The position numbers and the translations under genes are program-made. Positions 21,335-58,456 of a DNA stretch of 64,000 bases are shown piece after piece (within the stretch, counting starts at the first letter, position 1; each line of letters opens with the position of its first letter). The stretch comes from a virus (Duplodnaviria > Heunggongvirae > Uroviricota > Caudoviricetes). Location: IMG/VR virus record IMGVR_UViG_2795385714_000007; one strand, 5' to 3'. The notes below the pieces were generated by a model, which saw only the letters and a program-made list of their open reading frames with translations, made no database searches and was not told where the DNA came from.

Positions 21335-21749
21335 TCACGTTGTCACCGGTGGCATCGCCACTGCCCTCGGTGCTCTCGTCGTCTTCGGTGCCGTCGGGGT
21401 CCGGCGGGTCTCCGCCAACCCGGCTTCCGGCGGCGGGCTCAAGCCCGAATAGCCGGGCCTCCTGTTGAGCGACGCGGCGGCAGTGTTCAGCAGCTCGGGT
21501 GTCCCCGGCGACAGCCCGCGGGTAGTGGGCGGCCCACAACGCCTCCAGCCGCTCCAGGTAGACGTCGAAAGCCTTGTCGCGGAGCAGGTCGCGCCGCTCT
21601 GACTTCGCCATCTCGCGGCGTACCGCCTTGTGGCAGGCGGCCAGGGTGTTGTAGCCGCACGCCTCCTGGATGGCGCGGAATGACTTCCCCGCGATGAACA
21701 GCCGCACCGCCTTCATATCCCGCTCCAGGCGCTCGGCAGCGCGCATCAA
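21297..21749 (-). CDS. terminase small subunit (HTH)
   Basis: 150 aa, basic N-terminal HTH-like, acidic C-terminus; directly upstream of terL. Confidence 0.6.
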   Translation of the reverse strand: MMRAAERLERDMKAVRLFIAGKSFRAIQEACGYNTLAACHKAVRREMAKSERRDLLRDKAFDVYLERLEALWAAHYPRAVAGDTRAAEHCRRVAQQEARLFGLEPAAGSRVGGDPPDPDGTEDDESTEGSGDATGDNVSDLDEWRSRQNA

Positions 21750-23257
21750 TCCTCACCGTCCTCGTCCAGCTCGGGTTCCGCGATCAAGGTGACTTCCTCC
21801 CCGCAACGGCGTGCAGCCCGTATCCGGTCGCCCTTCACCAACACCAAGATGTCCTGGTGCACCCGGCCCAGTGCGCGACCTTTGGAGAAGGGGCGCGCCG
21901 CGCGGGCGGCGTTGGACCCGATGGCGGTCAGGAGTACGGCGTCGTTGGCGAGCTTCATTCCGGTGGCCTCGGCCGCGCGGGAAACCAGGGATCGCATATC
22001 GCGTAGGTCCCCGCGCTTGTCGCGGGCTGACCCGACCACGAGTGCCGCGAACGAGTCGGGCCGCAGCACCCGGGCCACCTCGGCGATGGTCTCGATGAAG
22101 GCGGCGTCGAACTCGTCCGTGGACATGGCCGACAGGTCGGCCGGGTCCTTGGAGTACTGCTCCAGGTCGTAGTAGGGCGGGCAGCCGATCATCATGTCGA
22201 ACGACTCGTCATCCAGGGTCTTGAGAACGTCGCGAGAGTCGCCCTGAATCCACTGCGGTGCCGTGACGGTCGTGGCCATCTGCGGGAGTCGCGGTTCCAC
22301 CACCGCCCACTGTTCCCCGTTCACCGCCAGCTGGTCACCGGACAGGTCGATGCCGGTGTACCTGCGGCCGAGGGCGGCCGATACGACACCCCGGACCGAG
22401 CCGCCGGACCATGGGTCGATGACGTCGGCCTCCACCGGTGAGAACCACGACACCAGCAGCTCGGCGAGCACCGGGTCGAATACCGAGATGGCGCCGCCCT
22501 CGGCGTAGAACTTCAGCTCGTCGCCGTAGCGCTCCATGATCTCGGCGGTGGTCAACGTCCGGCCGATCTTCTTCTCAGCGGCGTTCTTGATCTCGTACCA
22601 GTTGGCGTAGATCGACTGAGGCGCCTTGAACGCCATGATGCCCGTTGCGGCACGGGCATCCGACCCACCTTCTGTATCGACCGAGCGGCCGGACGCCGAG
22701 GCGATTCCGAGCGCCTTCCACGCCTTAACCCGTTGCTTCCAGGCGCCCTGCTTGGCATCGAGCACCGTGAACGGTGGAACCCCGAACCGGGAGGCCAGCG
22801 TGCTCTTGGCATCGGACACCGCACCGTCTCCGTCCGGCACGGTCAGCTCGGACGCCAGCTCCTCCAGGTCGGCCGCCGTGTAACCGGTACCGTCCAGCTC
22901 GTCCAAGCCCTCCAGGAGCGCCAGCAGTTCGGCGGTGTCGTAGTCGCCCAGGTCGGACAAACGGTTGTCGGCCGCGACGATGGCCTTGGCCTGCTGCTCG
23001 GACACGTCCAGCAACGTGGCACTGATGGTGTCCCAGCCCAGCTTGCGGGCCGCCAGGAGGGTGTGGTTGCCCGCCAGCACCTCCATCGGGCGACCTGTCT
23101 TAGTGCCCGCATTGACGACAATCGGCCGGTACTGGCCATGACGGGACAGCGACTGGACGATGGCGTCGACCTGGCCCCGGCGCGGATTGCCGGCGAAAGT
23201 CCTCAAGTCGGTTACAGCAAACACTCGGACGACCAGGTCCTCGGGGGTCATGGCCAT
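21746..23257 (-). CDS. ParB-like nuclease domain / DNA methyltransferase fusion
   Basis: N-terminal ParB-like region (AGNHTLLAARKLGW) and C-terminal SAM-MTase motif IV-like CPPY; inner ATG (MAMTPEDL). Confidence 0.75.
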   Translation of the reverse strand: MAMTPEDLVVRVFAVTDLRTFAGNPRRGQVDAIVQSLSRHGQYRPIVVNAGTKTGRPMEVLAGNHTLLAARKLGWDTISATLLDVSEQQAKAIVAADNRLSDLGDYDTAELLALLEGLDELDGTGYTAADLEELASELTVPDGDGAVSDAKSTLASRFGVPPFTVLDAKQGAWKQRVKAWKALGIASASGRSVDTEGGSDARAATGIMAFKAPQSIYANWYEIKNAAEKKIGRTLTTAEIMERYGDELKFYAEGGAISVFDPVLAELLVSWFSPVEADVIDPWSGGSVRGVVSAALGRRYTGIDLSGDQLAVNGEQWAVVEPRLPQMATTVTAPQWIQGDSRDVLKTLDDESFDMMIGCPPYYDLEQYSKDPADLSAMSTDEFDAAFIETIAEVARVLRPDSFAALVVGSARDKRGDLRDMRSLVSRAAEATGMKLANDAVLLTAIGSNAARAARPFSKGRALGRVHQDILVLVKGDRIRAARRCGEEVTLIAEPELDEDGED

Positions 23258-23436
23258 GTGGATTCCGTCAACTTTCGTCGGGGGGGGAGGACACAAGCCG
23301 GGCGGCATGGGCCTCGGCTGGGCGTTTGAAGTTTCGGAGGCCCCTTACCCCTCTGGTTGGCCCTGAGACGGCCGTTTGTGGGGTGTCGGGTGTCATCGGT
23401 CCTCTGTGGCACGGGGGCGTACAGGGCGTTTCAGCG

Positions 23437-33632: not shown

Positions 33633-35348
33633 CTACAGTCCGGCCGAGAAGTCCGAGATCAGCTGCGGGACAGCCGAGTCGAAACCGGACACGTCCAGCT
33701 GGCCGGGGTCGGCGGGGTCGGCGATGGTGAAGCGGGTTGCCGTCATGCCGACAACGATCAGGCGGGCGTTGATGCCCGTCTTGTTGCGGTAGTCGCGGAG
33801 CGCCTGGTGTGGGTGGACGTCGCCGAACCAGGTTTCGTTGTCGGTGATGACCACGAACGTGTCGAACTCGCGCTTGGACTGCTGTGCCCACAGCATGGGG
33901 AGTGCGCAGTCGGTGGCGCCGAAGCTGAGTCCGGCGGTGTACCGGCACACGTCGTCGAGGCGGCGGCGCGGTGTGATGTCCAGCGGGGTGATGTGGTGCT
34001 GGGACCGGTAGCCGTAGCCCGAGCGCGCGGCCTGTCGTCCGTCGGTGAAGCCGACGACCTCGTGGTCGGGCTCGACGTTGGTGGTGACGAGTGCGAGTGC
34101 GGCTGCGGCCTCGCGGCATGTCAGCGGCATACCTGAGATAACGGCGCCCATGGAGCCGGACACGTCCAGCGCCAGCAGGGTGCGCTTGCCCGACGGCTCT
34201 ACCACGCCGTAGGCGTTGTAGAACGCGGCGTCCAGGGCGTCCACGACCTTGCGTTCCGGCGTCCAGGTGGAGTCGCCGCGCGCCGAATGCCCGGACGCGT
34301 AGGTGCGCTGTGCGATCAGGACGTTGACCGGGTGGACGCGGCCCTTGCGTAGGCGGTCGGCGTCCTGGAGCTGAGCAACGACACGATCCAGATATTCACC
34401 ATGCAGGACCCCATGCCGGGTCAGGCGAGGAAGTTGGCGCATCAATGCGGTCTGCGGCAGACCGTGCTCAATCAGCGCTTCCCACACAGCGGTGAAGTTG
34501 AGCGCGACGTCTGGCAACGCTTCCCAGGGAAGGCCGTTGCCACGTCGAATGATGCTCACCCATTCCTTGGGCTGGGTGGCGCGCTGGGCATCCTCGAAGT
34601 CCTCGATGATCGCCAGGGGGTGGTCAACCACAAGCTCGACGTTAGGCAGCTTGGGCCGGGAGGCATTGCGCTCCCCTGCCTTCAACTGCTCGGCAGTGAG
34701 GGGCTGGACCTTACCGATGTAGTCGTTCAGGCCCTTGCCGACTGCCCAGTTGAAGGCGAGGCGGCGGGCCGGGTCCGCCGTGGTGGGGCCGGACAGGCGT
34801 AGTAGGTCCCGGTGCATCCAGCCTTCGCGCTGTCGGTACTTGACCAGCTGGTAGGCGAGGCGGTCGACGGGCTTGTCGAGGTACCAGCCGCCGACGGCGC
34901 GCTGCATGGCGCGGCCCCACCCGCGGAACTGCTCCATGTACTTGACGAACGTGTAGAGCTGGGTGCCGGTGCGGGCGACCGTGGGCAGGGCTGCTGCTGC
35001 GGCGCGGCGGCCGTCGACGTCCTCTGCTGCGGCGGCGATGGCGAGGGCGAACAGGGCCGGGTTCTGCCGGGGTGCGCGTCCGTCCACAGACACCTCGACG
35101 ATGTGCTGGACGAGGCGGACTGGGTCGGCCGCTGCTGCGCGGAGCACGACGGCCGCTGTTTCCTTGGTGAGGTCGGGGGCGGTGGTGTAGTAGGTGCCGC
35201 CGTCGGTGCCGAGGGTGAGGAAGCGGTGCAGCAGGGCCTCGTCGTCGATGGTGAAGGTGTAGCCACCGGCGGAGTTCTTCACCTGCCGGGGGTCCGCCTG
35301 CTGCGACTGCGGCGTCTTACGGGTTCCGATAGTGGTGAGAACGTCCAC
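33633..35348 (-). CDS. rsr: Ro60-like ribonucleoprotein (TROVE domain + vWA domain), Rsr orthologue
   Basis: 571 aa; N-terminal TROVE/HEAT-like region; C-terminal vWA with MIDAS motif LALDVSGSM; adjacent permuted tRNA-like RNAs. Confidence 0.85.
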   Translation of the reverse strand: MDVLTTIGTRKTPQSQQADPRQVKNSAGGYTFTIDDEALLHRFLTLGTDGGTYYTTAPDLTKETAAVVLRAAAADPVRLVQHIVEVSVDGRAPRQNPALFALAIAAAAEDVDGRRAAAAALPTVARTGTQLYTFVKYMEQFRGWGRAMQRAVGGWYLDKPVDRLAYQLVKYRQREGWMHRDLLRLSGPTTADPARRLAFNWAVGKGLNDYIGKVQPLTAEQLKAGERNASRPKLPNVELVVDHPLAIIEDFEDAQRATQPKEWVSIIRRGNGLPWEALPDVALNFTAVWEALIEHGLPQTALMRQLPRLTRHGVLHGEYLDRVVAQLQDADRLRKGRVHPVNVLIAQRTYASGHSARGDSTWTPERKVVDALDAAFYNAYGVVEPSGKRTLLALDVSGSMGAVISGMPLTCREAAAALALVTTNVEPDHEVVGFTDGRQAARSGYGYRSQHHITPLDITPRRRLDDVCRYTAGLSFGATDCALPMLWAQQSKREFDTFVVITDNETWFGDVHPHQALRDYRNKTGINARLIVVGMTATRFTIADPADPGQLDVSGFDSAVPQLISDFSAGL

Positions 35349-35479
35349 CGTGCATCTCCTTGTTAGAGGGTGCGGGCGGCGCGAACGTGTGAAGGGCGGC
35401 CGGGGTTCGTCATCCTTGCGAGGGGTGGGGTAACCGACTGCGATCCTGCTCGTGCCACCCGCGAGGGCTATTGGGCGGG

Positions 35480-35600
35480 TGATGTGAACGTGTTTGTGCT
35501 GACCGGGATTTCGCTTTTACACCCGCACTGGGTGCGGGCGACAGGGATTGAACCTGCATTAACCAATTGAGTGATAACCGACCGAGCGTCCTGTTCACAT
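35480..35600 (-). ncRNA. YrlA-like Y RNA module 1 (permuted tRNA-like)
   Basis: Minus strand: 9-bp closing stem GATGTGAAC/GTTCACATC; T-arm-like GCAGGTTCAATCCCTG; 7-bp acceptor-like hairpin CCCGCAC-CCA-GTGCGGG capped by a CCA loop. Confidence 0.6.
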
Positions 35601-35619
35601 CGGGTTGTCTGTAGTGCGT

Positions 35620-35775
35620 GCGCGTAGGTGGTGTGGGCGTGTGGGGTGCTGACCGGCGTATGTGGACAATTGCCTCTACCAATTGGGCTACACCCCGCGG
35701 GCGAGGTGGTGGGGCTCGAACCCACACCTGACTGTTTTGGTAACCGACCTGCGTCCTGTCCACACCGCCTGCGCG
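35620..35775 (-). ncRNA. YrlA-like Y RNA module 2
   Basis: T-arm GTGGGTTCGAGCCCCAC then D-arm-like GCCCAATTGGTAGAGGC; flanked by conserved GGTCGGTTACC / CCGGTCAGCAC arms. Confidence 0.55.
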
Positions 35776-35799
35776 CGTGCGTCTGCTGGCGTTTGAGGC

Positions 35800-35940
35800 G
35801 GTGTGAGCGTGTGGGTGTCTGCCGGGGTTAAGCGCTCTAGGCCACTGAGCTACAACCACTTTCGTGGTCGACGGGATTCGAACCCGCGTCTCTCTCGTGA
35901 AAGGAGTTAACCGACTGACGTCCTGTTCACACCGTGCTGC
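35800..35940 (-). ncRNA. YrlA-like Y RNA module 3
   Basis: T-arm CGGGTTCGAATCCCG; acceptor stem CGACCAC-GAAA-GTGGTTG; canonical D-arm TAGCTCAGTGGCCTAGAGCGC; T-arm/3' acceptor strand precedes 5' acceptor/D-arm. Confidence 0.65.
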
Positions 35941-35964
35941 GTCTATGGAGTTGTGTCAGGGGGC

Positions 35965-36115
35965 CGCGACCGTGTGTGTGCCGACCGGTGTTTTAGGCGC
36001 TCTGCCAGGCTGAGCTACCCCGGACATGTGATGCCGGGGGCAGGATTTGAACCTGCGACCTCCCGCTCCGAATGCGATAACCGACCATGCGTCCTGGTCG
36101 CACCCTGATGCGTAT
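35965..36115 (-). ncRNA. YrlA-like Y RNA module 4
   Basis: T-arm GCAGGTTCAAATCCTGC; hairpin CCCCGG-(10 nt)-CCGGGG; D-arm TAGCTCAGCCTGGCAGAGCGCC. Confidence 0.6.
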
Positions 36116-36139
36116 ATGGAGTTGTGTTGGGTGATGGGG

Positions 36140-36280
36140 CGAACGTGTGTGTGCTGACCGGGGTTTAGCGCTCTGCCAACTGAGCTACAGCCGGGGGCTG
36201 GCTGGCGGGACTCGAACCCGCGACCTCTCCATTACAAGTGGTAACCGACCTGCGTCCTGCTCGCACCATCTGGTGTCTAT
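36140..36280 (-). ncRNA. YrlA-like Y RNA module 5
   Basis: T-arm CGGGTTCGAGTCCCG; D-arm TAGCTCAGTTGGCAGAGCGC; same conserved flanking arms. Confidence 0.6.
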
Positions 36281-36298
36281 GTAGTTGTGGTCTGGGGG

Positions 36299-36418
36299 AC
36301 GACGTGAACGTGGTTGGCGCTGGGCGGGTTTGGCTCCATTTCCCCGCTTGGCTCGGGGCGTTCTAACTTGAACTACGGGGGCGTACCCCGAGATAACCGA
36401 CCTGCATTCTGTTCACGT
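36299..36418 (-). ncRNA. divergent Y RNA-like module 6
   Basis: Same 9-bp closing stem (GACGTGAAC/GTTCACGTC) and GGTCGGTTATC arm, but the internal domain is two GC hairpins rather than a tRNA-like T/D pair. Confidence 0.4.
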
Positions 36419-36446
36419 CGTCCGTTGTTTTGTTGTCTGAAAACGA

Positions 36447-36464
36447 AGCTATACCGCGGTATAG
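36447..36464. promoter_or_regulatory. 18-bp palindrome GCTATACCGCGGTATAGC
   Basis: Perfect inverted repeat using the same TATAG/CTATA half-sites in swapped order; lies just upstream (on the minus strand) of the Y RNA array. Confidence 0.4.
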
Positions 36465-36519
36465 CGGTGCTGCAACAGGATTGAGGCTTGTCTGTATAGC
36501 CGCTCGGTAGCCGCGACCA

Positions 36520-36942: not shown

Positions 36943-37194
36943 ATGGCAAGAGTGATACTCACAGCGAAAGCGCGGATGCGCGCCAACAAGCGCCGCGTCA
37001 CGTCGGCACTCCGCAACGCAGGTATGCCGCTCCTCGTCGACAACCGCGACGGCATCTGGCGCCTCTACTTCATCGGCACCGACGACACCGGTGTCGAGCT
37101 GGAGCTGATCCTGGTCCCACACGCCACCCAGGACTGGACCTGGGTATGTATCCACGCCATGCCCACCAAGTACCGGAAAGGAGGGGCACAATGA
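36943..37194 (+). CDS. BrnT-like (RelE-fold, DUF497-like) toxin candidate
   Basis: 83 aa; RLYFIGTDDTGVELELILVPHATQDWTWVCIHAMPT resembles the BrnT core (R..IG...G.L.VV......IRIISAR); plus strand in a minus-strand genome. Confidence 0.45.
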   Translation: MARVILTAKARMRANKRRVTSALRNAGMPLLVDNRDGIWRLYFIGTDDTGVELELILVPHATQDWTWVCIHAMPTKYRKGGAQ

Positions 37195-37394
37195 CCCTCA
37201 TGAGCAGTCACAGCGAAGCCGACCTCAAGCGCCTCACCTTCGGCGATGACCTGGTCGTCGACGACATCGACCTCGACAAGGAAGAGTTCCTTGTCGGCGA
37301 CGGAGTCCGGCTGACCAACGAAGCGGCCGACAAGCTCGCAGCCGAAACCCTAGCCGAGGTCGAACGGCGAAACATCCAGGCAGAGAAAGGCTAG
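37191..37394 (+). CDS. small acidic antitoxin-like protein (BrnA/RHH-like C-terminus)
   Basis: 67 aa; ATGA overlap with toxin gene; GGAGG RBS; C-terminal GVRLTNEAADKLAAETL is consistent with a ribbon-helix-helix. Confidence 0.4.
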   Translation: MTLMSSHSEADLKRLTFGDDLVVDDIDLDKEEFLVGDGVRLTNEAADKLAAETLAEVERRNIQAEKG

Positions 37395-47642: not shown

Positions 47643-48427
47643 CGGTTTACGTCGCCGTCTACGTCGCTGTGCACGTGCTCGATGGCCTTGTTGGGGTCTG
47701 CGGTGCGCCAGTCGGGCCACGTGCGTTGCTCGTTCCTGGTCTGCTTCGCAAGGATCGCGTCGATGATCTGTTGCGGTTCCCAGCCCGCGCGCCAGGCTCC
47801 GTCGAAGGCCAGGATGATGACGTCTACCCATTCGGAGATGTCGTCAGGGGCGTCCCGTATCTCGTTCAGCTCTTTGCCGATGTGGTCCAAGACTCCGTTG
47901 GTTCGGGCACCCGGGCCGAAGGTTGCGAGGCTGAATGCACGCTGTCGCGCCAGGTGTGCTGCGTCTATTACGCGGGTGGGTGACGTGCCCGGTCGCTGCT
48001 GTTCGTCCACCGTTGTGGGCTCACCGCACCCAGCCGCCCCGAACTCGTCCCATGGGATAAACCGGTCTACTTCGAAGACCTCACCGCGCCGCACGCGCAT
48101 ACGGTCGATGGCGTTGTCGACGTTGGTTTCATCCGCGCGGTCTTTGCACCAGAACCCCCAAAGGCGTACCCGCCGCCCTGTCACGATGAGTGTCCAGCAC
48201 GGGAGCTTGCGCTGATCGCGGCGCGCGAGGAACTGATTTGAGTGCGTCGCGGCCGGTACCAACTCCACGCGGTGCCGCCATGTGCCTCGCCGGAATGCCA
48301 GCGGCCGGTCGCCCCAGAAGAAGCGCCACGGCTCCGGGGCGGACCTGACGGACCGACCCTCCTCAGTGACCTCCACGACTGGGGAAGTACACGTATTCGA
48401 TATGTGCGCTATTCCGGTAGGGATCAT
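47639..48427 (-). CDS. MazG-like dATP/dGTP pyrophosphohydrolase domain protein
   Basis: C-terminal EWVDVIILAFDGAWRAGWEPQQIIDAILAKQTRNEQRTW resembles phage MazG-like/DUF550 core. Confidence 0.55.
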   Translation of the reverse strand: MIPTGIAHISNTCTSPVVEVTEEGRSVRSAPEPWRFFWGDRPLAFRRGTWRHRVELVPAATHSNQFLARRDQRKLPCWTLIVTGRRVRLWGFWCKDRADETNVDNAIDRMRVRRGEVFEVDRFIPWDEFGAAGCGEPTTVDEQQRPGTSPTRVIDAAHLARQRAFSLATFGPGARTNGVLDHIGKELNEIRDAPDDISEWVDVIILAFDGAWRAGWEPQQIIDAILAKQTRNEQRTWPDWRTADPNKAIEHVHSDVDGDVNR

Positions 48428-50724
48428 GGCTGGACCGCCTTCGACTGGCGGATGTGTTCTGTTGCTTCGAGGTATGCCGCCCAGCTGTTCTGTGCGTATT
48501 CAGCCCATCGATAGGCAGTGGATGGCGCGATGCCGAACAGGTCTGTCATGACTGGGGGTGGCAGCGTCGAGGCCGAGGCGATCATCGCGGCGTTGCGTGC
48601 GTGGATGACGGGGAGGCCGTAGCGGGTCAGTCGCTGCTGCAGCGATCTTGGATGGATGGGCCTGCTCGGTGGTCGCCCGGGGAACAGGTATCGCGGGATC
48701 TCATCAGAAGCGTTGTGCACCATACTGCTTACGGATCGTCGTTCGATGAGCTGTTCAATGAGCCGCGCTAGAGATGGCGGCAGGAGAACGGGATTGCGGT
48801 CGAAAGTGATGAAGGATCCGTGTTCGTCTGCGTGGTAGCGATCGGTGGTGAGTTCGATCATCCGGACGGTCATCGGCGCGTAGAGCCGGATCAGTGCTCC
48901 CGCAACGCGGACTTCCAGTGGGAGTGTTTCGTCAGTGAGGCATCGGCGAAGCTGCTGGTGCAGTTCGTCTTCGGGCAGCAGTCGTGACGGTGGTCCGGTG
49001 GGCCGCGATGGGACGGTGAGGGCGGCGCCGGCCAGGCGCTGTTTGGTCAACCACTTCGCGAAGACGACCAGGTGTTTTTGCGAGGTTGGGTTGGCGGCGA
49101 GCCACTCCTCGAGGTGCGGCTGTCCGATGGCCTCGAGCGAGTATTGCTTCTGGTCGATCCAGTCGAGAAAATCGATCGCGGTAAGGATCTTGGCGCGGTC
49201 GGAGGCGGCAGCACCGTCGGTGTAGTTGCGGCGTCGCGATCGCGCCCGGGCGTCACGGACGACTCTCCATTCAGCGAACGGTCGGATGATCCGGGCTTGG
49301 TGGCTGGGCAGCGCGGCGGTCGTGCGCGTCGCCCACAGCATCAGTTGTGTCAGCTGTTCAGGGCGCGAAGGCAATACCCCTGTTGCGACGAGTAGTTGCC
49401 GAATGTAGCGGGTGGCTCCGTCCTGGTTGAGGTCATCGAGCAGTTCGTGGGTGATCGGCTGCTGATCGGCGACCAGGCCGGCCAGCAGCCGCGAGGACTT
49501 GCCGACGCGTAGCCAGGTGAGGATCGAATTGGGGTGGGCCGTGGCGAGGGCGTCGACGAGCGGTTGCAGCTGTGTAGGGACCTGTCCGGTGTCGTCGCTG
49601 AGCAAGTCAGTGACACGGCTGGCGGCCACGCATCGAGCGCATTTACCGGCGCTGTAGTGCATGCCTTCGGCCCCGCAGGTTTTGCAGGCGAAGTCGAGGT
49701 CGGCGCCCGAGCATGCAGTGCAGATCTCTTTGCCGTCGGTGTTCAAGCCGACCATGACCGCGGTGCGTTGGCACGTTGCGCAGGTTGTTGGGTTGTGCAG
49801 GCGCCGCTGGTAGCAGCTTCGACAGATGGTGCCCAGTGGCCATGTGGCGCAGGCGGTGCCGTACTCACCGCAGTAGTGGCAGTGGCGAGGACGCATCGGC
49901 CAGCAGGAGATGCAGTGAAACGGGCCGCCGCGGTATTTTCCTCCAGCTCGGGTTCGCCCGCAGGCGACACATTCGCCGATGTTTCGGTAGCAGCGTCGGC
50001 AGATGTCTGGGGTGGTGTCTGTTGCCCGGGCCTGTATTTCGTTGATCTCGCCGCATAGTCCGCATCGTCGTGCTGGTGTGCTGTAGCAGGCCCGGCAAAG
50101 CGGGCCTTCGGCGGTGAGGGCATGGGTCTGGCGGGTTTGGCCGCACTGGCTGCATTGTCGCGGCGGCGGCAGGCTGCATCCCTGACACAGCACCGTGCCG
50201 TCGGCGCGTCGAACATTGGGCGGGCGGGTCCGGCCGCAGCCGGCGCACTGTTGAAGGAACTCGGGATCGTTGTTGTAGCAGCGTCGGCAGATCGCTCCTT
50301 CTTTGCGGCGTGCCGTGAGGAGACCGGGCTCGCCGCAGCGCGCGCAGGGCCGTCGGTCGTTCTTTATCGCGCACCAGTTGCAGCAGCGGCCCTCGGGGCT
50401 GGTGCGGCGCAGCCGCACGTCGGTTCGGCCGCATCGAGCGCAGCCCAGCAGCGTCACCGAATCGGCGTATCCGTTGGCGGCCAACAGTTGCAGTAGCGCT
50501 GGTAGCGACGCGGGCCCTGCGTGAGTGGGTGCAGTGAACGCGTCAGCGTTCTCGGCGAGGTGCCGCTGCAGCTCGGCGACCCGCCCGCGGGAGTTCCACG
50601 CCTTCGCCTCGATCAGGAACTGCTGAGCGCGATCGCGCGGCATCTGCGGGTCGATGGCATCGACCACTTTTCTCACGAGGGCTTCGCGGGCTTCGTCCAG
50701 CGACAAGTTGGCTGTGGTGGTCAT
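48424..50724 (-). CDS. multi-zinc-ribbon protein fused to a divergent tyrosine recombinase-like domain (766 aa)
   Basis: 8-9 tandem C-x2-C...C-x2-C units in N-terminal half; C-terminal half has a core-binding-like segment (ATRYIRQLLVATGVLP), a catalytic-like segment (HPRSLQQRLTRYG...HARNAA...STAYRW) and a candidate Tyr; coupled (ATGA) at both ends. Confidence 0.55.
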   Translation of the reverse strand: MTTTANLSLDEAREALVRKVVDAIDPQMPRDRAQQFLIEAKAWNSRGRVAELQRHLAENADAFTAPTHAGPASLPALLQLLAANGYADSVTLLGCARCGRTDVRLRRTSPEGRCCNWCAIKNDRRPCARCGEPGLLTARRKEGAICRRCYNNDPEFLQQCAGCGRTRPPNVRRADGTVLCQGCSLPPPRQCSQCGQTRQTHALTAEGPLCRACYSTPARRCGLCGEINEIQARATDTTPDICRRCYRNIGECVACGRTRAGGKYRGGPFHCISCWPMRPRHCHYCGEYGTACATWPLGTICRSCYQRRLHNPTTCATCQRTAVMVGLNTDGKEICTACSGADLDFACKTCGAEGMHYSAGKCARCVAASRVTDLLSDDTGQVPTQLQPLVDALATAHPNSILTWLRVGKSSRLLAGLVADQQPITHELLDDLNQDGATRYIRQLLVATGVLPSRPEQLTQLMLWATRTTAALPSHQARIIRPFAEWRVVRDARARSRRRNYTDGAAASDRAKILTAIDFLDWIDQKQYSLEAIGQPHLEEWLAANPTSQKHLVVFAKWLTKQRLAGAALTVPSRPTGPPSRLLPEDELHQQLRRCLTDETLPLEVRVAGALIRLYAPMTVRMIELTTDRYHADEHGSFITFDRNPVLLPPSLARLIEQLIERRSVSSMVHNASDEIPRYLFPGRPPSRPIHPRSLQQRLTRYGLPVIHARNAAMIASASTLPPPVMTDLFGIAPSTAYRWAEYAQNSWAAYLEATEHIRQSKAVQP

Positions 50725-51056
50725 GACCGGCCTGGTCTGCGCACGATGGAACGTTTCGGCACCACGGGCGGCGCCGATGGCGCTGCGCCGGTGCCGTCGG
50801 CGGTCTTTCGGGCCGATCCGGCCACGACTTCGGGAACGATGAGATCGTTGGGTGTGCATCCCAAGATGTCGCACAAGGCGACGAGGGTGTCCATGCTCAG
50901 CCGTTGTGGTGGTTGGGTCACCAGCCGATAGACCTGCTCCCGCGACAGCGTGATGCCGCGCTCCACCAGGTGCGGAATCAGGTCCGATGTTTGAAACATG
51001 TCCTGCTCAGCCATCAGGGCCCGAAGTCGCCACTGAAACGTCATCTTCTTCGTCAT
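50721..51056 (-). CDS. Xre-like helix-turn-helix protein
   Basis: 111 aa; SREQVYRLVTQPPQRLSMDTLVALCDILGCTPNDL; ATGA overlaps on both sides. Confidence 0.6.
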   Translation of the reverse strand: MTKKMTFQWRLRALMAEQDMFQTSDLIPHLVERGITLSREQVYRLVTQPPQRLSMDTLVALCDILGCTPNDLIVPEVVAGSARKTADGTGAAPSAPPVVPKRSIVRRPGRS

Positions 51057-52171
51057 TGGCTCACTCCATCCCAGTGCTGGCCCAGGCGCCCCAGCAGGGA
51101 CGCTTTGAGCAGTTCGTTGCGGTACTCGTTGGTCACGTGGGTGTAGATCGATGTCGTCGAGGCATGGGCGTGGCCCACTTGCTCCTGGACAAACCTTGGT
51201 GGATAACCGAATTCGGTCCAATGAGTCACTGCCGAGTGACGAAGGCAATGCGGCGTGAGCACCGGATCGAGCCCAGCGTCATTGCGGGCAGCCACGAAGG
51301 CCTCGTTGATCGAGCGCGGGGAAAGCCGCCCACCACGTTCGGTCACCCACAAAGCCGGATACCGCTCGGGCAGACCGAACCGTGGCCGAATCTCGTCCAC
51401 CCACTGCGCAAGCGTGTCGACAATCCAATCCATCTCCGGGACGAGAAGCACACTGCGGCGCTTGGTCGCCGAACCCTTTGACGGCTTGCCGTGCCGCACC
51501 GTCACCACGCCGAACCCTCTGAACTCAGGGGCCAGCTTGTTCGAATGCAGATCTCCGATATCGAGTCGCGAGGCCTCGGTGCGTCGAAGTCCAAACGCGT
51601 ACAGCGTCTTTAAGACTGCCGCATCCCGAGCGGCGCCCAATGCCCCCTTCACGCCGCGCTCCCTGATCGTCGCGACCCGTCCGTCGGCGGCGTCGAACAA
51701 TGCCTGCACTTCGTCGTAGTTGAGTGGCCGACGCCCAGGATCGGACTCGTTCTCGACCCGGTGCTGAACGGAGTTTCCCTCGTGGAAAATCTGCTGAGGC
51801 GCCTGACCGAACTGCTCAAGGCATACGGTGACCCAGTCATAGCGCGGATCCAGCAGATACTCGACGAACAAGGTGATCGCGATCTCGTAGGACCGCGCTG
51901 TCGACACCGCTTTCACCGTCGTCGACCGCAAATGATCGATGAACGCCTCCCCCTCTGCCGGCGTCCACTGCCACGGATACAGGCCGGTGAACTCCTCCAA
52001 CCGGCGCATCAATGCGAGCCGCGACCCGATCGTTCCCGCCCGCAGAAACCGCGACGACTGTTGTCTTCGCCAGCCTTCGAGCATCGCCGAGAACACCGCT
52101 GCGGGAGGGTCCAGAGGAACCACGTTCTGCGCCAACATCAACCGCGCCGATCCCGGCGCCAAATCCGTCAC
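51053..52171 (-). CDS. int: tyrosine integrase/recombinase
   Basis: 372 aa; GLRRTEASRL, HCLRHSAVTHW and GHAHASTTSIYTHV (R-H-R-H-Y) motifs; GTG start. Confidence 0.85.
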   Translation of the reverse strand: MTDLAPGSARLMLAQNVVPLDPPAAVFSAMLEGWRRQQSSRFLRAGTIGSRLALMRRLEEFTGLYPWQWTPAEGEAFIDHLRSTTVKAVSTARSYEIAITLFVEYLLDPRYDWVTVCLEQFGQAPQQIFHEGNSVQHRVENESDPGRRPLNYDEVQALFDAADGRVATIRERGVKGALGAARDAAVLKTLYAFGLRRTEASRLDIGDLHSNKLAPEFRGFGVVTVRHGKPSKGSATKRRSVLLVPEMDWIVDTLAQWVDEIRPRFGLPERYPALWVTERGGRLSPRSINEAFVAARNDAGLDPVLTPHCLRHSAVTHWTEFGYPPRFVQEQVGHAHASTTSIYTHVTNEYRNELLKASLLGRLGQHWDGVSQ

Positions 52172-56004: not shown

Positions 56005-57213
56005 TTAGTTCTCCTTGTTGTTGAGTGCGGCGATGAGGTTTGCCGCTTCGTTTTCGGACAGGTCGTTGATGTCCGATATGTCCCTGCTGATGACCGTCTT
56101 GAGGTAGGCCAGTGCGTCGACAGCGGATTCTTTGGTGCGGAACGAGTACTTGGCGTTGCCTAGAAGGCCGCGGACGGTGCCGATGTCCTTCTTCGTTGCC
56201 AGGTACTCGCCTCGGCTGTTCACTTCTGCCGGGTCGGCTCCGTCAGGTGTTCCGCTGCCGGACGGCGGGATGAGGTCACCGCCGTCCGGCACGGGGACCT
56301 CCTCGGCCGCGGGTTCTGTAGCGCCCGAACCCGTTTCCGGGTCCCCGATGGTGGGCGCCAGATCACCGGTGGTCGTTGACGCGGGGTCCGTCTTCGGAGT
56401 GGCCTTTGTTTCTGTTGCACGGGCGGTGATTTCGTCTTGGGTGGACTGTGAGGCGGGCGGGAAGATCTCGCGCTGGTCCATGCCGTCGCGGGTGATGGAG
56501 GTGTACGTGATGCCCATCTGGGCGACGTCTCCGGCGTCCCAGGCGCCGCGCTTCTTCCCGATCCGGGCCTCCATCTGGGCCTCAGTGACACCGAGTTCCT
56601 GCCGGAACTTGGCGACCATGGTTTCGATGCGGTCCTTGAGGGGGACGCCTTCGCCCTTTTCCAAGGTGTTGCGGCACAGGTCCTGCGCCATCTCGGTAAA
56701 CCACTTCGGCAGCACCGACGAAATGCATTCGCGGACAGCGCGGGCACCGGCATTGTTGTTGTTGTTCGTGATGTCGCCGAGGTCGTTTAGCTCCTCGCGG
56801 CGCCCCTGCTTCATACGGGCGTGCGGCACGATGAACGTACGTGTGGAGCGCGTGTTGGTCTGGACGTCCCAGGCGAATGCCTGGATCTCGGACTCAGCTT
56901 TGAGGTCGTCGCGGTGCAGCTCGTTGACGCCGTATTGAACGTTGCCCCACAGCCGGGCCAGCTCGCGCATGAGGTGCACGGAGGGGCCGGTGCCGCGGTT
57001 GGGCACCTGGTAGAACGCCTGTACCGCCATGGCCATGCGGCTGCACGCGTCCCGCATTTCCGCCTCGGCGCGCTGGAGGTCACGGGGAATCTGTTGCGCA
57101 ACAATGACTGCTGACTGGACCTCGGCGACGGCACGGGACTGTTCCACCGAGGTGGCTTGGCTGATCGCGGTCCGGGGTGCAGCGGCGATGGGCTGGTACT
57201 GCGAGACGGTCAT
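56005..57213 (-). CDS. ssDNA annealing protein (RecT-like SSAP) with acidic low-complexity C-terminus
   Basis: 402 aa; paired with the upstream RecE/YqaJ-like exonuclease. Confidence 0.5.
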   Translation of the reverse strand: MTVSQYQPIAAAPRTAISQATSVEQSRAVAEVQSAVIVAQQIPRDLQRAEAEMRDACSRMAMAVQAFYQVPNRGTGPSVHLMRELARLWGNVQYGVNELHRDDLKAESEIQAFAWDVQTNTRSTRTFIVPHARMKQGRREELNDLGDITNNNNNAGARAVRECISSVLPKWFTEMAQDLCRNTLEKGEGVPLKDRIETMVAKFRQELGVTEAQMEARIGKKRGAWDAGDVAQMGITYTSITRDGMDQREIFPPASQSTQDEITARATETKATPKTDPASTTTGDLAPTIGDPETGSGATEPAAEEVPVPDGGDLIPPSGSGTPDGADPAEVNSRGEYLATKKDIGTVRGLLGNAKYSFRTKESAVDALAYLKTVISRDISDINDLSENEAANLIAALNNKEN

Positions 57214-58109
57214 TAGTCAAGGTCTCCTTCTTGCTGGTAGATGGCGTAGCTGGGCAGGGATATGGAGTTGATGCCCTGGCCGTAGTCCGGCCAGTGGTCG
57301 TTGGCAACGCATTGCGCGTAGAGGTCGATGGCCTTGCGGTTGCGTCGTCGGCCGAGATCGATTGCGGCGGGGTCTAGTTCGTTGACCGACACGAGGTAGG
57401 GCGGGTTCTTGGACTGGACGATGAACACGAACGCGGCGTCGTCGGCTATCTCGCATGCCGCCAGCCCGTCGAGGTACCAGGGGGCCTGCATGTGGTACCC
57501 GTATTCGGCTGCCGCCTTGGCGAAGTGACCTGGGTGCGCCGATGTCGAGGTCTTGTAGTCGACAACCACCAGGCGGTGGCGGCCGGGGTTGGGGAGCCAG
57601 TCGGGCCGGAGGCGCAGTCGCACCCCGGTTTCAGGGTCGTGCCAGTACCCGGATAGCTCGGGTGTTCCGTCTGCCAGCAGGATGCGGGCAATGGGGTGCT
57701 CGCGGACCTTGGCGGCCATAGCCTTTGCCTCCGCGACATCGTCGATGTGCATGGGTATCTGGCCGTTAGCGCGGGCCTCCTTCGCCGCCTCCTTCCACAT
57801 AGCGGTCGATGTAGGCGAGTCGGACACCTTGCCGTCTTTCGTCAACCCGTGTTCCTTCGGGTCTAGCGCGACGATCTCCCCGCCCTCGCCGAGTACGTAC
57901 AGGTGGGCAGCGTGGCCGAAGTCGTACTCCTTCTTCGGTGTCCGCGGCTGGTCCTGGTAGTGGCGGAATATCGCTGGGCATGACGGCGCCAGGAGCGCGC
58001 GGGCGCCGGAGGAGGACAGGCTGCCGCGGTCTGCGTGGTAGGCCTCGTCGGGGATACCGGCATACATACCGTCCACGGCAGGGATCAGCTTGGTGTCGGC
58101 GGCGGTCAT
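57213..58109 (-). CDS. RecE/YqaJ-like PD-(D/E)xK exonuclease
   Basis: Inner ATG MTAADTKLIP; VVVDYKTS (D-x-K) and QAPWYLDG motifs. Confidence 0.6.
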   Translation of the reverse strand: MTAADTKLIPAVDGMYAGIPDEAYHADRGSLSSSGARALLAPSCPAIFRHYQDQPRTPKKEYDFGHAAHLYVLGEGGEIVALDPKEHGLTKDGKVSDSPTSTAMWKEAAKEARANGQIPMHIDDVAEAKAMAAKVREHPIARILLADGTPELSGYWHDPETGVRLRLRPDWLPNPGRHRLVVVDYKTSTSAHPGHFAKAAAEYGYHMQAPWYLDGLAACEIADDAAFVFIVQSKNPPYLVSVNELDPAAIDLGRRRNRKAIDLYAQCVANDHWPDYGQGINSISLPSYAIYQQEGDLD

Positions 58110-58456
58110 GCGTTGCGGCCCTTCGGTAGGTAGTTGTCGTGCAGGTAGATGTCGTGCAGAGGCAGCGCGATGGGGGTGTCGTAGAGGTCCTGGCCGTGGG
58201 TGAGGGTGAGTCCGACTGCTTCGGCGTCCACCGGGTTGGTGGTGACCCAGTGGTGGCAGTCGCGGCACAGGTGCACGATGTTGGCCGGGTGCCACTGGCC
58301 GCCTTGTGACCGATTGCGGCGGTGGTGCATGTCTGTCCCGTGCTGCTTGCCGCACCACTCGCACCAGCCCATTGACCGGCCCTTGACGTGCTCACGAGTC
58401 AGGTCTTCGGTCCACTGGTATATGTACGGCTCTGCCCAAATGTCGTCTGTTGTCAC
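58106..58456 (-). CDS. HNH endonuclease
   Basis: GWCEWCGKQHGTDMHHRRNRSQGG...HLCRDCHHW; GTG start at GTGA overlap. Confidence 0.65.
   Translation of the reverse strand: MTTDDIWAEPYIYQWTEDLTREHVKGRSMGWCEWCGKQHGTDMHHRRNRSQGGQWHPANIVHLCRDCHHWVTTNPVDAEAVGLTLTHGQDLYDTPIALPLHDIYLHDNYLPKGRNA

What the first reader, a model, noticed from the sequence alone, without database searches (positions are those of the whole stretch)
33633..36420. Phage-encoded Ro60 (TROVE+vWA) immediately preceded by a tandem array of about six YrlA-like permuted tRNA-mimic RNAs
The 1-kb gene-free stretch upstream of the Ro60 gene, on the same strand, holds repeated modules. Read on the minus strand, each module has a tRNA-like T-arm (GGTTCGAATCC / GGTTCAAATCC) followed by the 3' acceptor strand, a short capping loop, the 5' acceptor strand and then a D-arm (TAGCTCAGTGG..TAGAGCGC). 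This is a circularly permuted tRNA: the ends sit where the anticodon stem would be and extend into a long imperfect stem. That is the architecture described for bacterial YrlA Y RNAs that bind Ro60/Rsr. Conserved arms (GGACG..GGTCGGTTA(C/T)C at the 5' side, CCGGTCAGCAC at the 3' side) recur in every unit, and 9-bp terminal stems (GATGTGAAC/GTTCACATC) close units 1 and 6. Several Y RNA paralogues next to a phage Ro60 would be unusual. It suggests the phage brings its own RNP (RNA decay/quality-control or tRNA-mimic decoy) system, possibly with differently specialised modules.
Basis: partly seen in the sequence, partly recalled or inferred. Interest (0 to 1): 0.85.

Follow-up and report, generated by a model that had tools for sequence, protein, structure and literature searches.

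The report
Seven Y RNA genes before prophage Ro60
A Mycobacterium abscessus-type prophage carries a Ro60 RNA-binding protein gene preceded by seven diverged Y RNA genes, four of them full tRNA look-alikes; this is an unusually large version of the Ro60/Y RNA system already described in bacteria and phages.

Summary
The ORF at 33633-35348 (-) is a full-length Ro60 (TROVE + Ro60-vWA; E 9e-103 to D. radiodurans Rsr). The 1.05 kb upstream, on the same strand, holds seven structured units, not about six.

- All seven share a closing stem, an internal loop and a GUCGGUUA/CCGG helix.
- U2-U5 carry the complete YrlA-type permuted tRNA module (hairpin, T arm, capped acceptor hairpin, UA, D arm).
- U6 has only a T arm and acceptor hairpin. 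U1 and U7 have no T arm.

A covariance model built from U2-U5 finds exactly these seven sites in 64 kb. In 48 other Ro60 loci its significant hits (E ≤ 0.01) all lie upstream of Ro60 on its strand. Compensatory changes support every helix. Rfam YrlA matches four units, but below its gathering score.

Phage Ro60 with YrlA RNAs has been known since 2014. What is new is the size of the array: 7 here, 6-7 in near-identical prophages, 2 in cluster C mycobacteriophage LinStu, 1-4 in bacterial loci. The array also mixes module types and varies by one whole unit (U3) between close relatives. No expression or binding data exist. The best reading is a co-transcribed family of Ro60-binding Y RNAs.

The parts
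33633..35348 (-). Ro60/Rsr orthologue, 571 aa, GTG start, TROVE ring plus vWA domain. The MIDAS motif DVSGS is present.
   Evidence: Pfam TROVE 1.4e-45 and vWA_Ro60 3.9e-63. PHROG 850 RNA-binding protein 2.2e-104. PDB 2nvo 9e-103. Translation. The start matches the GTGGAC start of M. smegmatis rsr used as a primer in PMC4201824.
35349..35374 (-). Leader between U7 and the Ro60 start codon. It contains the Shine-Dalgarno-like sequence AAGGAG 7 nt before the GTG.
   Evidence: Read directly from the sequence.
35375..35459 (-). U7, a minimal Y RNA. It has a terminal stem, an internal loop (CAGGAUCG) and a helix GCAGUCGG/CCGGCCGC. It has no tRNA-like arms. It sits in the position of M. smegmatis YrlB, directly upstream of Ro60.
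   Evidence: R1 hit 39.1 bits, E 3.7e-6, not in the training set. Across 17 orthologous minimal units, 12 of 17 predicted pairs show compensatory change.
35481..35601 (-). U6, a YrlB-like Y RNA. It has a 9-bp terminal stem GAUGUGAAC/GUUCACAUC, the Ro-type helix, a T arm (GCAGG-UUCAAUC-CCUGU) and a 9-bp capped acceptor-like hairpin with loop CCA. It has no D arm.
   Evidence: R1 hit 75.6 bits, E 2.2e-13, not in the training set. The MFE fold shows these elements, z -2.26.
35630..35766 (-). U5, a full YrlA-like unit. T arm GUGGG/CCCAC, 7-bp acceptor hairpin CACCUCG-CCCG-CGGGGUG, and a variant D arm (GCCC...GAGGC, one mismatch) followed by a longer 3' linker.
   Evidence: Rfam YrlA 28.4 bits, E 0.0013, full-length alignment. 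R1 121.1 bits.
35800..35933 (-). U4, a full YrlA-like unit. V hairpin CUUUC-ACGA-GAGAG, T arm GCGGG/CCCGU, 7-bp acceptor hairpin CGACCAC-GAAA-GUGGUUG, UA, then D arm GCUC/GAGC. It is the most variable unit among close relatives.
   Evidence: Rfam YrlA 26.5 bits, E 0.0046. R1 135 bits. The MFE fold shows all arms, z -2.40. Compensatory changes in the Ro-type helix against relatives.
35961..36105 (-). U3, a full YrlA-like unit. T arm GCAGG/CCUGC, 9-bp bulged acceptor hairpin, D arm GCUC/GAGC. It is absent from the 6-unit relatives.
   Evidence: Rfam YrlA 36.7 bits, E 5.2e-6, full-length. R1 125.6 bits. Clean one-unit indel against L001, L003 and L004.
36136..36267 (-). U2, a full YrlA-like unit and the closest counterpart of M. 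smegmatis YrlA. V hairpin CCACUUGUAAUGG with an anticodon-loop-like 7-nt loop, T arm GCGGG/CCCGC, acceptor hairpin CAGCCAG-CCC-CCGGCUG, D arm GCUC/GAGC.
   Evidence: Rfam YrlA 37.6 bits, E 2.8e-6. R1 138.4 bits. 19 orthologues give the same consensus fold de novo. 20/23 identity to the YrlA-5' probe target.
36297..36423 (-). U1, an atypical Y RNA-like unit. 13-bp terminal stem GGACGACGUGAAC/GUUCACGUCGUCC, loop CAGAAUG, GUCGG/CCGCC helix, then three small hairpins, one of them D-arm-like (GUUC-AAGUUA-GAAC). It has no T arm.
   Evidence: R1 hit 35.9 bits, E 1.7e-5, not in the training set. MFE z -3.65. It is conserved only in close relatives, so support is weaker.
36448..36465 (-). Hairpin GCUAUACCGCGGUAUAGC followed by UUCGUUUUCA, 25 nt upstream of U1. 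It could be a terminator that insulates the array from upstream genes, or part of a promoter region (TTGCAG-18-TAGCTT).
   Evidence: Terminator-like site (2 found against 2.2 expected, so not significant alone). The promoter reading comes from my own reading of the sequence and is unverified.
36195..36273 (-). ARAGORN 'tRNA-Thr(tgt)' call. This is a mis-reading of the 5' two-thirds of U2 (V hairpin read as anticodon arm, plus the U2 T arm). It is not a separate gene.
   Evidence: No Rfam tRNA hit at gathering score and only 18 bits to tRNA-Sec. The same spurious tRNA is annotated in MW584167.

Best explanation
The region is a phage-borne Ro60 operon whose 5' part encodes seven paralogous Y RNAs of the actinobacterial YrlA/YrlB type.

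Shown:
- Each unit folds so that its 5' and 3' ends pair. This forms a closing stem, an internal loop carrying a variant of the GNCGAA motif ((G/A)CAGGACG), and a second helix G(G)UCGG/CCGG(U/C)C with a conserved U-G wobble.
- This is the architecture of the Ro60-binding module of bacterial Y RNAs.
- The distal part differs between units. U2-U5 have a complete permuted tRNA-like domain, U6 has T arm plus acceptor hairpin only, and U1 and U7 have neither.

Inferred:
- The units are probably transcribed with Ro60 as one precursor and cut apart in the C/A-rich single-stranded spacers, as shown for M. smegmatis YrlA and YrlB.
- Each probably binds the outer surface of the phage Ro60 ring through the shared stem.
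- The variable distal module then probably decides which partner is tethered to Ro60, or how access to its cavity is gated. The host 3'-5' exoribonuclease PNPase is the documented partner elsewhere, and tRNA-recognising enzymes may also be recruited.
- On this reading the prophage supplies its own set of Ro60 RNPs to remodel or degrade structured RNA in the host.
For: - Ro60 identity.
- Seven and only seven hits of model R1 in 64 kb, all contiguous and on the Ro60 strand. Three of them were not in the training set.
- 143 R1 hits in 47 Ro60 loci, all upstream of Ro60 and on its strand.
- On that fitted alignment, 95.4% of cells are paired and 24 of 29 pairs show compensatory change. Slid controls reach at most 39% paired.
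- De novo RNAalifold consensus on MAFFT alignments recovers the terminal stem, Ro-type helix, T arm, acceptor hairpin and D arm (16 of 30 pairs compensatory). For the minimal type, 12 of 17 pairs are compensatory.
- Compensatory changes occur in the Ro-type helix even between ~97%-identical prophages.
- Rfam YrlA is the only family with significant E-values here.
- U2 is 20/23 identical to the target of the M. smegmatis YrlA-5' probe. [quoted passage not shown]
Against: - There are no expression, processing or binding data for this element.
- All Rfam YrlA scores are below the gathering threshold (at most 37.6 bits against 69).
- MFE z-scores for U2, U3, U5 and U7 do not differ from shuffles.
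- No consensus promoter was found upstream of U1, and a terminator-like hairpin sits there. The transcription unit is therefore inferred.
- U1 has no orthologue outside close relatives and could be a decaying copy.
- The internal-loop motif differs from the published GNCGAAN0-1G at two positions.
- The PNPase link is borrowed from other species.
Confidence: 0.78

Rival explanations
1. Only one or two units (U2 as YrlA, and U7 or U6 as YrlB) are functional Y RNAs. The rest are decaying duplicates carried along neutrally, so the 'array' has no collective function.
For: - U1 is found only in near-identical relatives.
- U5 has a weakened D stem.
- U3 is dispensable, since ten close relatives lack it.
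- Most Ro60 loci manage with 1-2 units.
Against: - The units are 47-76% identical to each other, yet all keep the paired ends and arms.
- U3-, U6- and U7-type units have recognisable counterparts in prophages whose Ro60 is only 75% identical.
- Compensatory substitutions in U4 between close relatives indicate ongoing selection on structure.
Confidence: 0.12
2. The units, at least U7, act in cis. They would form a structured 5' leader of the Ro60 mRNA to which Ro60 binds to autoregulate its own translation or stability, rather than acting as free trans-acting Y RNAs.
For: - U7 ends 26 nt before the start codon and 13 nt before the AAGGAG.
- A minimal unit sits directly upstream of Ro60 in most of the actinobacterial and phage loci sampled.
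- No terminator separates the array from Ro60.
Against: - In M. smegmatis the RNA in this position (YrlB) is a discrete Rsr-bound small RNA processed from the precursor (PMC4201824).
- The two roles are not exclusive.
Confidence: 0.07
3. The region is a degenerate phage tRNA gene cluster (pseudo-tRNAs or true permuted tRNA genes) with no relation to Ro60.
For: - ARAGORN calls a tRNA-Thr here, and GenBank MW584167 annotates it.
- Nucleotides 28-63 of U2 are 88.9% identical to tRNA-Thr genes of Klebsiella phages.
Against: - No Rfam tRNA hit at gathering score.
- The order of arms is T, capped acceptor, D, with no anticodon arm in the tRNA position.
- All units carry the conserved non-tRNA end-pairing module. 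Such units occur specifically upstream of Ro60 in 48 loci.
Confidence: 0.02

Closest known systems
M. smegmatis YrlA and YrlB upstream of rsr (Chen et al. 2014, RNA 20:1715; PMC4201824)
   Same: - Same layout: Y RNAs upstream of Ro60 on the same strand. The M. smegmatis RNAs are processed from one precursor.
- U2 matches the YrlA-5' probe target at 20/23 positions.
- YrlA carries a permuted tRNA module with a roughly 7-bp acceptor stem.
- A shorter RNA lies next to the Ro60 start. YrlB has a T arm only, like U6. The YrlB probe target matches the last unit of Mycobacterium MAG loci at 20/25 positions.
   Different: - Seven units instead of two, four of them full YrlA-like paralogues with different acceptor hairpins.
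- The element is on a prophage.
[quoted passage not shown]
Rfam RF02553 YrlA, and the S. Typhimurium YrlA structure 6CU1 (Wang et al. 2018, bioRxiv 10.1101/312249)
   Same: - T stem-loop, closed acceptor stem-loop, UA linker and D stem-loop with conserved T and D stem sequences and a GG in the D loop.
- The Ro60-binding module is formed by the RNA ends.
   Different: - Scores are only 26-38 bits against a gathering score of 69.
- The actinobacterial units have an extra hairpin before the T arm.
- The inner helix GUCGG/CCGG is different, and the loop motif is CAGGACG rather than GNCGAA.
Y RNAs of cluster C mycobacteriophages (ET08, LinStu, Bxz1-like) and Thermus phage phiLo Yrl1/Yrl2 (PMC4201824; PMC12135203)
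   Same: - Phage-encoded Ro60 with Y RNAs immediately upstream.
- LinStu has one YrlA-like unit and one minimal unit of the same type as here.
- phiLo Ro60 and its Yrl RNAs form a complex with host PNPase.
   Different: - Those phages carry two units. This temperate M. abscessus-type prophage carries seven, and its relatives 4-7.
- The cluster C phages are large lytic myoviruses with many tRNA genes. This window has no genuine tRNA gene.
D. radiodurans rsr locus with Yrn1, Yrn2 and further small RNAs upstream of rsr
   Same: Several small RNAs encoded upstream of Ro60. Yrn1 tethers Rsr to PNPase.
   Different: The Yrn1 tRNA-like module has a different arm order and an independent origin (PMC4201824). 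No sequence similarity to it was detected here.

Membership tests
YrlA (Y RNA-like A; Chen 2014 / Rfam RF02553) | Encoded within 4 kb of a Ro60 (TROVE) gene and on the same strand | tested here: met
   All seven units lie 27-1075 nt upstream of the Ro60 start on the minus strand. The same holds for 143 of 143 hits in 47 other loci.
YrlA (Y RNA-like A; Chen 2014 / Rfam RF02553) | Permuted tRNA-like domain: T stem-loop (GGUUCRA), then a closed acceptor-like stem-loop, then a UA linker, then a D stem-loop (GCUC...GG...GAGC) | tested here: met
   Met for U2, U3 and U4, and for U5 with one D-stem mismatch. Not met for U1, U6 and U7, which are therefore not YrlA in the strict sense.
YrlA (Y RNA-like A; Chen 2014 / Rfam RF02553) | 5' and 3' ends pair into a Ro60-binding module carrying the GNCGAAN0-1G motif on the 5' strand | tested here: inconclusive
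   The end-pairing and internal loop are present and covary. The loop motif is (G/A)CAGGACG here. Relatives show GCCGGA(C/U)G and the canonical GCCGAAG. It is a two-position variant, and binding is untested.
YrlA (Y RNA-like A; Chen 2014 / Rfam RF02553) | Reaches the Rfam gathering score (69 bits) | tested here: not met
   The best hit is 37.6 bits. The four hits have E-values from 2.8e-6 to 4.6e-3. The Rfam model fits the tRNA-like core but not the actinobacterial stem.
YrlA (Y RNA-like A; Chen 2014 / Rfam RF02553) | Bound by Ro60/Rsr in vivo and modified by tRNA enzymes (TruB, Dus) | not testable with these tools
   This needs RIP or Northern blots and modification mapping.
YrlB-type / minimal bacterial Y RNA | Short Rsr-bound RNA between YrlA and rsr, with the Ro-binding stem and at most a T arm | tested here: met
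   U6 (T arm plus acceptor hairpin) and U7 (stem only) occupy this position. Minimal units have a conserved, covarying fold in 17 loci. The YrlB probe target matches the equivalent unit of L026 at 20/25 positions. Binding is untested.
Ro60/Rsr protein | TROVE HEAT-repeat ring plus C-terminal vWA domain with a MIDAS motif | tested here: met
   Pfam hits for both domains over the full length. PDB 2nvo, 1yvp and 9nen at about 1e-100. DVSGS is present in the translation.
Canonical tRNA gene | Cloverleaf with open acceptor stem, anticodon arm and arm order D, anticodon, T | tested here: not met
   No Rfam tRNA hit at gathering score. The arm order is permuted. The single ARAGORN call overlaps the 5' part of U2.

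The most novel reading that the evidence does not exclude
The array could be a diversified cassette set rather than redundant copies. Each Y RNA would present a different acceptor-type hairpin on the same Ro60-binding handle.

Observations that prompt this reading:
- U4 and U5 have 7-bp stems, the length that makes M. smegmatis YrlA an RNase P and CCA-adding substrate.
- The loops that follow the acceptor 3' strand read CCC, CCCG and CCA.

On this reading the prophage would produce several split, CCA-tailed tRNA-like RNPs. These could sequester or redirect distinct host tRNA-recognising factors, such as RNase P, the CCA-adding enzyme, synthetases or acceptor-end-modifying toxins. Alternatively they could give Ro60/PNPase several substrate specificities. 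The gain and loss of whole units (6 versus 7 units, and a hypervariable U4) would then reflect an arms race.
Probability: 0.12. Interest if true: 0.8.

Novelty: new variant of a known kind. Interest (0 to 1): 0.45.

Why it matters
Bacterial Y RNAs are understood from very few cases, each with one or two RNAs per Ro60. What the tRNA-like module recruits is still unknown. A natural locus gives a ready-made comparison set for asking which module features control Ro60 partner choice. It has seven co-located Y RNAs sharing one Ro60-binding handle, graded distal modules (full tRNA mimic, T arm only, none) and unit-level presence/absence between near-identical prophages.

The host, M. abscessus, is clinically important, and its prophage accessory genes are of interest for lysogen fitness and phage therapy.

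There is also a practical annotation point. These RNAs are unannotated, or mis-annotated as tRNA-Thr or as hypothetical proteins, in public phage records.

Tried and rejected
- **Rfam at gathering thresholds:** no hit in the window. Hits appear only in E-value mode.
- **Tandem Repeats Finder:** nothing found, because the units are too diverged.
- **The repeat finder:** the call failed because it was given on the minus strand and was not repeated.
- **Single-sequence MFE z-scores:** not informative for four of the seven units.
- **Promoter scan:** no consensus promoter upstream of the array. My candidate TTGCAG-18-TAGCTT is unverified.
- **Alternative inner pairing GG[UC]GGUU/AACCCC:** considered and set aside. 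It works in U1, U2, U4 and U7 but fails in U5 and U6, whereas GUCGG/CCGG holds in all units and covaries.
- **Supplementary tables of Chen 2014:** these list loci with several YrlA hits but are not held. The 2020 Annual Review (PMC10870794) is not held either. I therefore could not check the largest number of Y RNAs per locus already reported.
- **Literature search for M. abscessus prophage with 'Ro-like':** no papers found.
- **Coding explanation:** rejected. ORFs overlapping the array (for example 35410-35859) fail a GC3 filter, and the curated relatives leave the region non-coding.


Full report
**1. What is there**

The ORF at 33633-35348 (minus strand, GTG start, 571 aa) is a complete Ro60.
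- Pfam finds TROVE (1.4e-45) and the Ro60 vWA domain (3.9e-63).
- PHROG 850 'RNA-binding protein' scores 2.2e-104.
- It matches the solved D. radiodurans Rsr, human Ro60 and X. laevis Ro60 at about 1e-100.
- A MIDAS-type DVSGS motif is present.

The window is a prophage. It encodes a tape-measure protein, major head protein, large terminase and an integrase. The Ro60 region is 93-94% identical to the M. abscessus prophages prophiT37-1 and prophiGD43A-5. In those records the 1.4 kb upstream of the 'Ro-like RNA binding protein' is unannotated, apart from a 'tRNA-Thr(tgt)' in one of them.

**2. The repeated units**

Read on the minus strand, GTCGGTTA occurs seven times between 35431 and 36401, at 144-170 nt spacing. 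The whole window has 8 matches against 1.33 expected by chance.

I delimited seven units by their self-complementary ends:

| Unit | Coordinates (minus strand) |
|---|---|
| U1 | 36423-36297 |
| U2 | 36267-36136 |
| U3 | 36105-35961 |
| U4 | 35933-35800 |
| U5 | 35766-35630 |
| U6 | 35601-35481 |
| U7 | 35459-35375 |

All seven share the same end module:
- a closing stem, GGUGYGANC/GNUCRCRCC in most units;
- an internal loop with (G/A)CAGGACG on the 5' side and CACAC on the 3' side;
- a second helix G(G)UCGG/CCGG(U/C)C containing a U-G wobble.

The distal parts differ.
- U2-U5 have a small hairpin, a T arm, a capped acceptor-like hairpin, a UA linker and a D arm. This is the permuted tRNA arrangement.
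- U6 has a T arm and acceptor hairpin but no D arm.
- U1 has no T arm, only small hairpins, one of them D-arm-like.
- U7 is the bare stem. It ends 26 nt before the Ro60 start codon, just ahead of an AAGGAG.

The units are 47-76% identical to each other, and Tandem Repeats Finder sees no array. They are old paralogues. The spacers are 21-33 nt, C/A-rich, and partly conserved (ACAACUCCAUAGAC).

**3. Is it more than chance?**

- Rfam at gathering thresholds finds nothing. In E-value mode the only significant family is YrlA (RF02553). It matches U2 (37.6 bits, 2.8e-6), U3 (36.7 bits, 5.2e-6, full-length), U5 (28.4 bits) and U4 (26.5 bits), all below the 69-bit gathering score.
- I built covariance model R1 from U2-U5. 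It returns exactly seven hits in the 64-kb window, all in this region. Three of them were not in the training set: U6 (75.6 bits), U7 (39.1 bits, E 3.7e-6) and U1 (35.9 bits, E 1.7e-5).
- Single-sequence folding gives z-scores of -3.65, +0.45, -0.48, -2.40, -0.20, -2.26 and -0.86 for U1 to U7. Thermodynamics alone does not carry the case.

**4. Comparative evidence**

Ro60 relatives were collected from viral contigs and from genomes, giving 45 loci, plus the two GenBank prophages. R1 gives 143 hits in these 47 loci. Every hit is on the Ro60 strand and upstream of Ro60.

- On the model-fitted alignment, 95.4% of cells pair and 24 of 29 pairs show double (compensatory) changes. Slid controls pair at no more than 39%. 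That alignment is biased towards the model, so I also ran independent tests.
- MAFFT plus RNAalifold on 19 U2-type orthologues predicted the terminal stem, the 2+5-bp inner helix, the T arm, a 6-bp acceptor hairpin and the D arm de novo. 16 of 30 pairs were compensatory.
- The same test on 17 minimal (U7-type) units gave an 8-bp terminal stem and a 9-bp inner helix, with 12 of 17 pairs compensatory and a nearly invariant U-G.
- Even among ~97%-identical prophages, U4 shows compensatory changes in the inner helix: G-C to U-A, and A·A to G-C.

**5. Link to characterised Y RNAs**

Chen et al. 2014 (PMC4201824) made four relevant points.
- YrlA-like RNAs lie within 4 kb of Ro60 in 254 bacteria and 22 phages.
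- YrlA, with a 7-bp acceptor stem, is cleaved by RNase P and receives CCA.
- YrlB has only a T arm.

The published probe sequences give a direct link. The YrlA-5' probe target is 20/23 identical to U2. The YrlB probe target is 20/25 identical to the last unit before Ro60 in a Mycobacterium MAG (L026).

The GNCGAAN0-1G motif corresponds to the 5' strand of the internal loop. Here it reads (G/A)CAGGACG. Relatives carry GCCGGA(C/U)G or the canonical GCCGAAG.

The structural paper on S. Typhimurium YrlA (10.1101/312249) lists the defining elements: T, closed acceptor, UA linker, D, and conserved T/D stems. U2-U4 have all of them. U5 has a weakened D stem.

**6. How unusual is the array?**

Units per locus:

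| Loci | Units |
|---|---|
| This window and L009 | 7 |
| Ten near-identical M. abscessus prophage relatives | 6 |
| Prophage contigs with 74-75%-identical Ro60 | 4-5 |
| Contigs with 62-65%-identical Ro60 | 2-5 |
| Cluster C mycobacteriophage LinStu (the type reported in 2014) | 2 |
| Bacterial MAG loci (Fimbriimonas has 4) | 1-4 |

A blastn of U2 against 50,697 phage records found 371 places in 366 records, so arrays with several blast-detectable copies are rare.

The 6-unit relatives differ from the window by a clean indel of about 175 nt that removes U3 plus one spacer, with junctions in the conserved spacers. U4 is the most divergent unit among relatives, at 88-90% identity against 97-100% for the others.

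I could not read Chen's supplementary tables or the 2020 Annual Review. The largest array already on record is therefore unknown to me.

**7. Mechanism**

Shown: homology and conserved structure of a Ro60-binding-type stem in all seven units, a tRNA-like domain in four, and strict linkage to Ro60.

Inferred from M. smegmatis, D. radiodurans, S. Typhimurium and Thermus phage phiLo (PMC4201824; PMC12135203):
- The units are co-transcribed with Ro60 and processed in the spacers.
- Each RNA binds the Ro60 ring.
- The distal module tethers a partner or gates the Ro60 cavity. PNPase is the documented partner.

There is no consensus promoter upstream of U1. A hairpin with a U-rich tail sits at 36465-36448. 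Its significance is unclear.

**8. Rivals**

- A neutral pile of decaying duplicates is possible for U1. It is unlikely overall, given conserved pairing at 47-76% identity and counterparts of several unit types in diverged prophages.
- A cis-regulatory role for U7 on Ro60 translation is compatible with its position and is not excluded.
- A tRNA gene cluster is rejected. The arm order is permuted, there is no tRNA hit at threshold, and the ARAGORN tRNA-Thr is a mis-reading of U2.

**9. Verdict**

Two adjustments are needed.
- The count and composition differ: seven units, of which four are true permuted tRNA mimics.
- Phage Ro60 with Y RNAs is established biology.

What is new is an expanded, heterogeneous Y RNA array that varies by one whole unit between close relatives, in M. 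abscessus-type prophages. It is not annotated in the public records examined, and no paper on it turned up in the library searched. I rate it a new variant of a known kind, with moderate interest.

Noticed in passing
window 36195-36273 (-); MW584167 gene 51 (L002 6228-6306): ARAGORN and the GenBank record of prophiGD43A-5 call a tRNA-Thr(tgt) here. It is the 5' part of Y RNA unit U2, with the V hairpin read as an anticodon arm, and is most likely a false tRNA annotation.
   Followed up: yes
window 36205-36240 (-), nt 28-63 of U2: The hairpin before the T arm, the linker and the T arm of U2 are 88.9% identical over 36 nt to tRNA-Thr genes of Klebsiella phages. The hairpin has a 7-nt anticodon-like loop, CUUGUAA. 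This fits the published idea that YrlA arose from a dimeric tRNA transcript, with the 'V' hairpin as an anticodon-arm relic. Orthologues vary the three central loop bases (UGU, UCU, UUU).
   Followed up: partly
window 35940-36115 versus L001, L003, L004: Close relatives lack exactly one unit (U3 plus a spacer), with breakpoints in the conserved spacers. L003 has a further deletion of about 34 nt at the 3' end of U4. The array changes by whole-unit gain and loss.
   Followed up: yes
window 35800-35933 (U4): U4 is much more variable among near-identical prophages (88-90% identity) than the other units (97-100%). The changes are concentrated in the Ro-type helix and the acceptor hairpin, and several are compensatory.
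   Followed up: partly
window U2 36192-36194, U5 35696-35699, U6 35530-35532 (approximate; acceptor hairpin loops): The loops that directly follow the 3' acceptor strand read CCC, CCCG and CCA, reminiscent of an encoded partial CCA end. U4 and U5 have exactly 7-bp acceptor stems, and U5 would have a G3-U70-like wobble. Relevance to RNase P or CCA processing is unknown.
   Followed up: no
window 36943-37394 (+): A BrnT-like toxin (PHROG 36779, 3.6e-34) and a small partner ORF are transcribed divergently from the Y RNA array, about 520 nt of non-coding DNA away. The same neighbourhood is found in prophiT37-1 and prophiGD43A-5.
   Followed up: partly
L048 (phage LinStu NC_023714) 3160-3305 and 3338-3409: The two Y RNA units of this cluster C mycobacteriophage overlap the annotated 'hypothetical protein' gp230 (3261-3434). 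Many cluster C records show hypothetical CDSs over the same spot. These are probably false gene calls.
   Followed up: partly
L032 3036-3590 (Fimbriimonas MAG); L025 81-2097 (viral contig): Multi-unit Y RNA sets (four R1 hits each) also occur upstream of distant Ro60 genes (39-46% identity). In L025 they are spread over 2 kb rather than tightly packed.
   Followed up: no
window 48424-50874 (-) and 51053-52171 (-): An 816-aa ORF with no PHROG match lies next to a tyrosine integrase. RecT-like and exonuclease genes lie beyond the integrase (56005-58364). The window may therefore span a prophage end, or a second element.
   Followed up: no
window 21746-23308 (-): A 520-aa protein combines a ParB-like nuclease N-terminus with a DNA methyltransferase C-terminus. 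It sits just upstream of the terminase genes.
   Followed up: no
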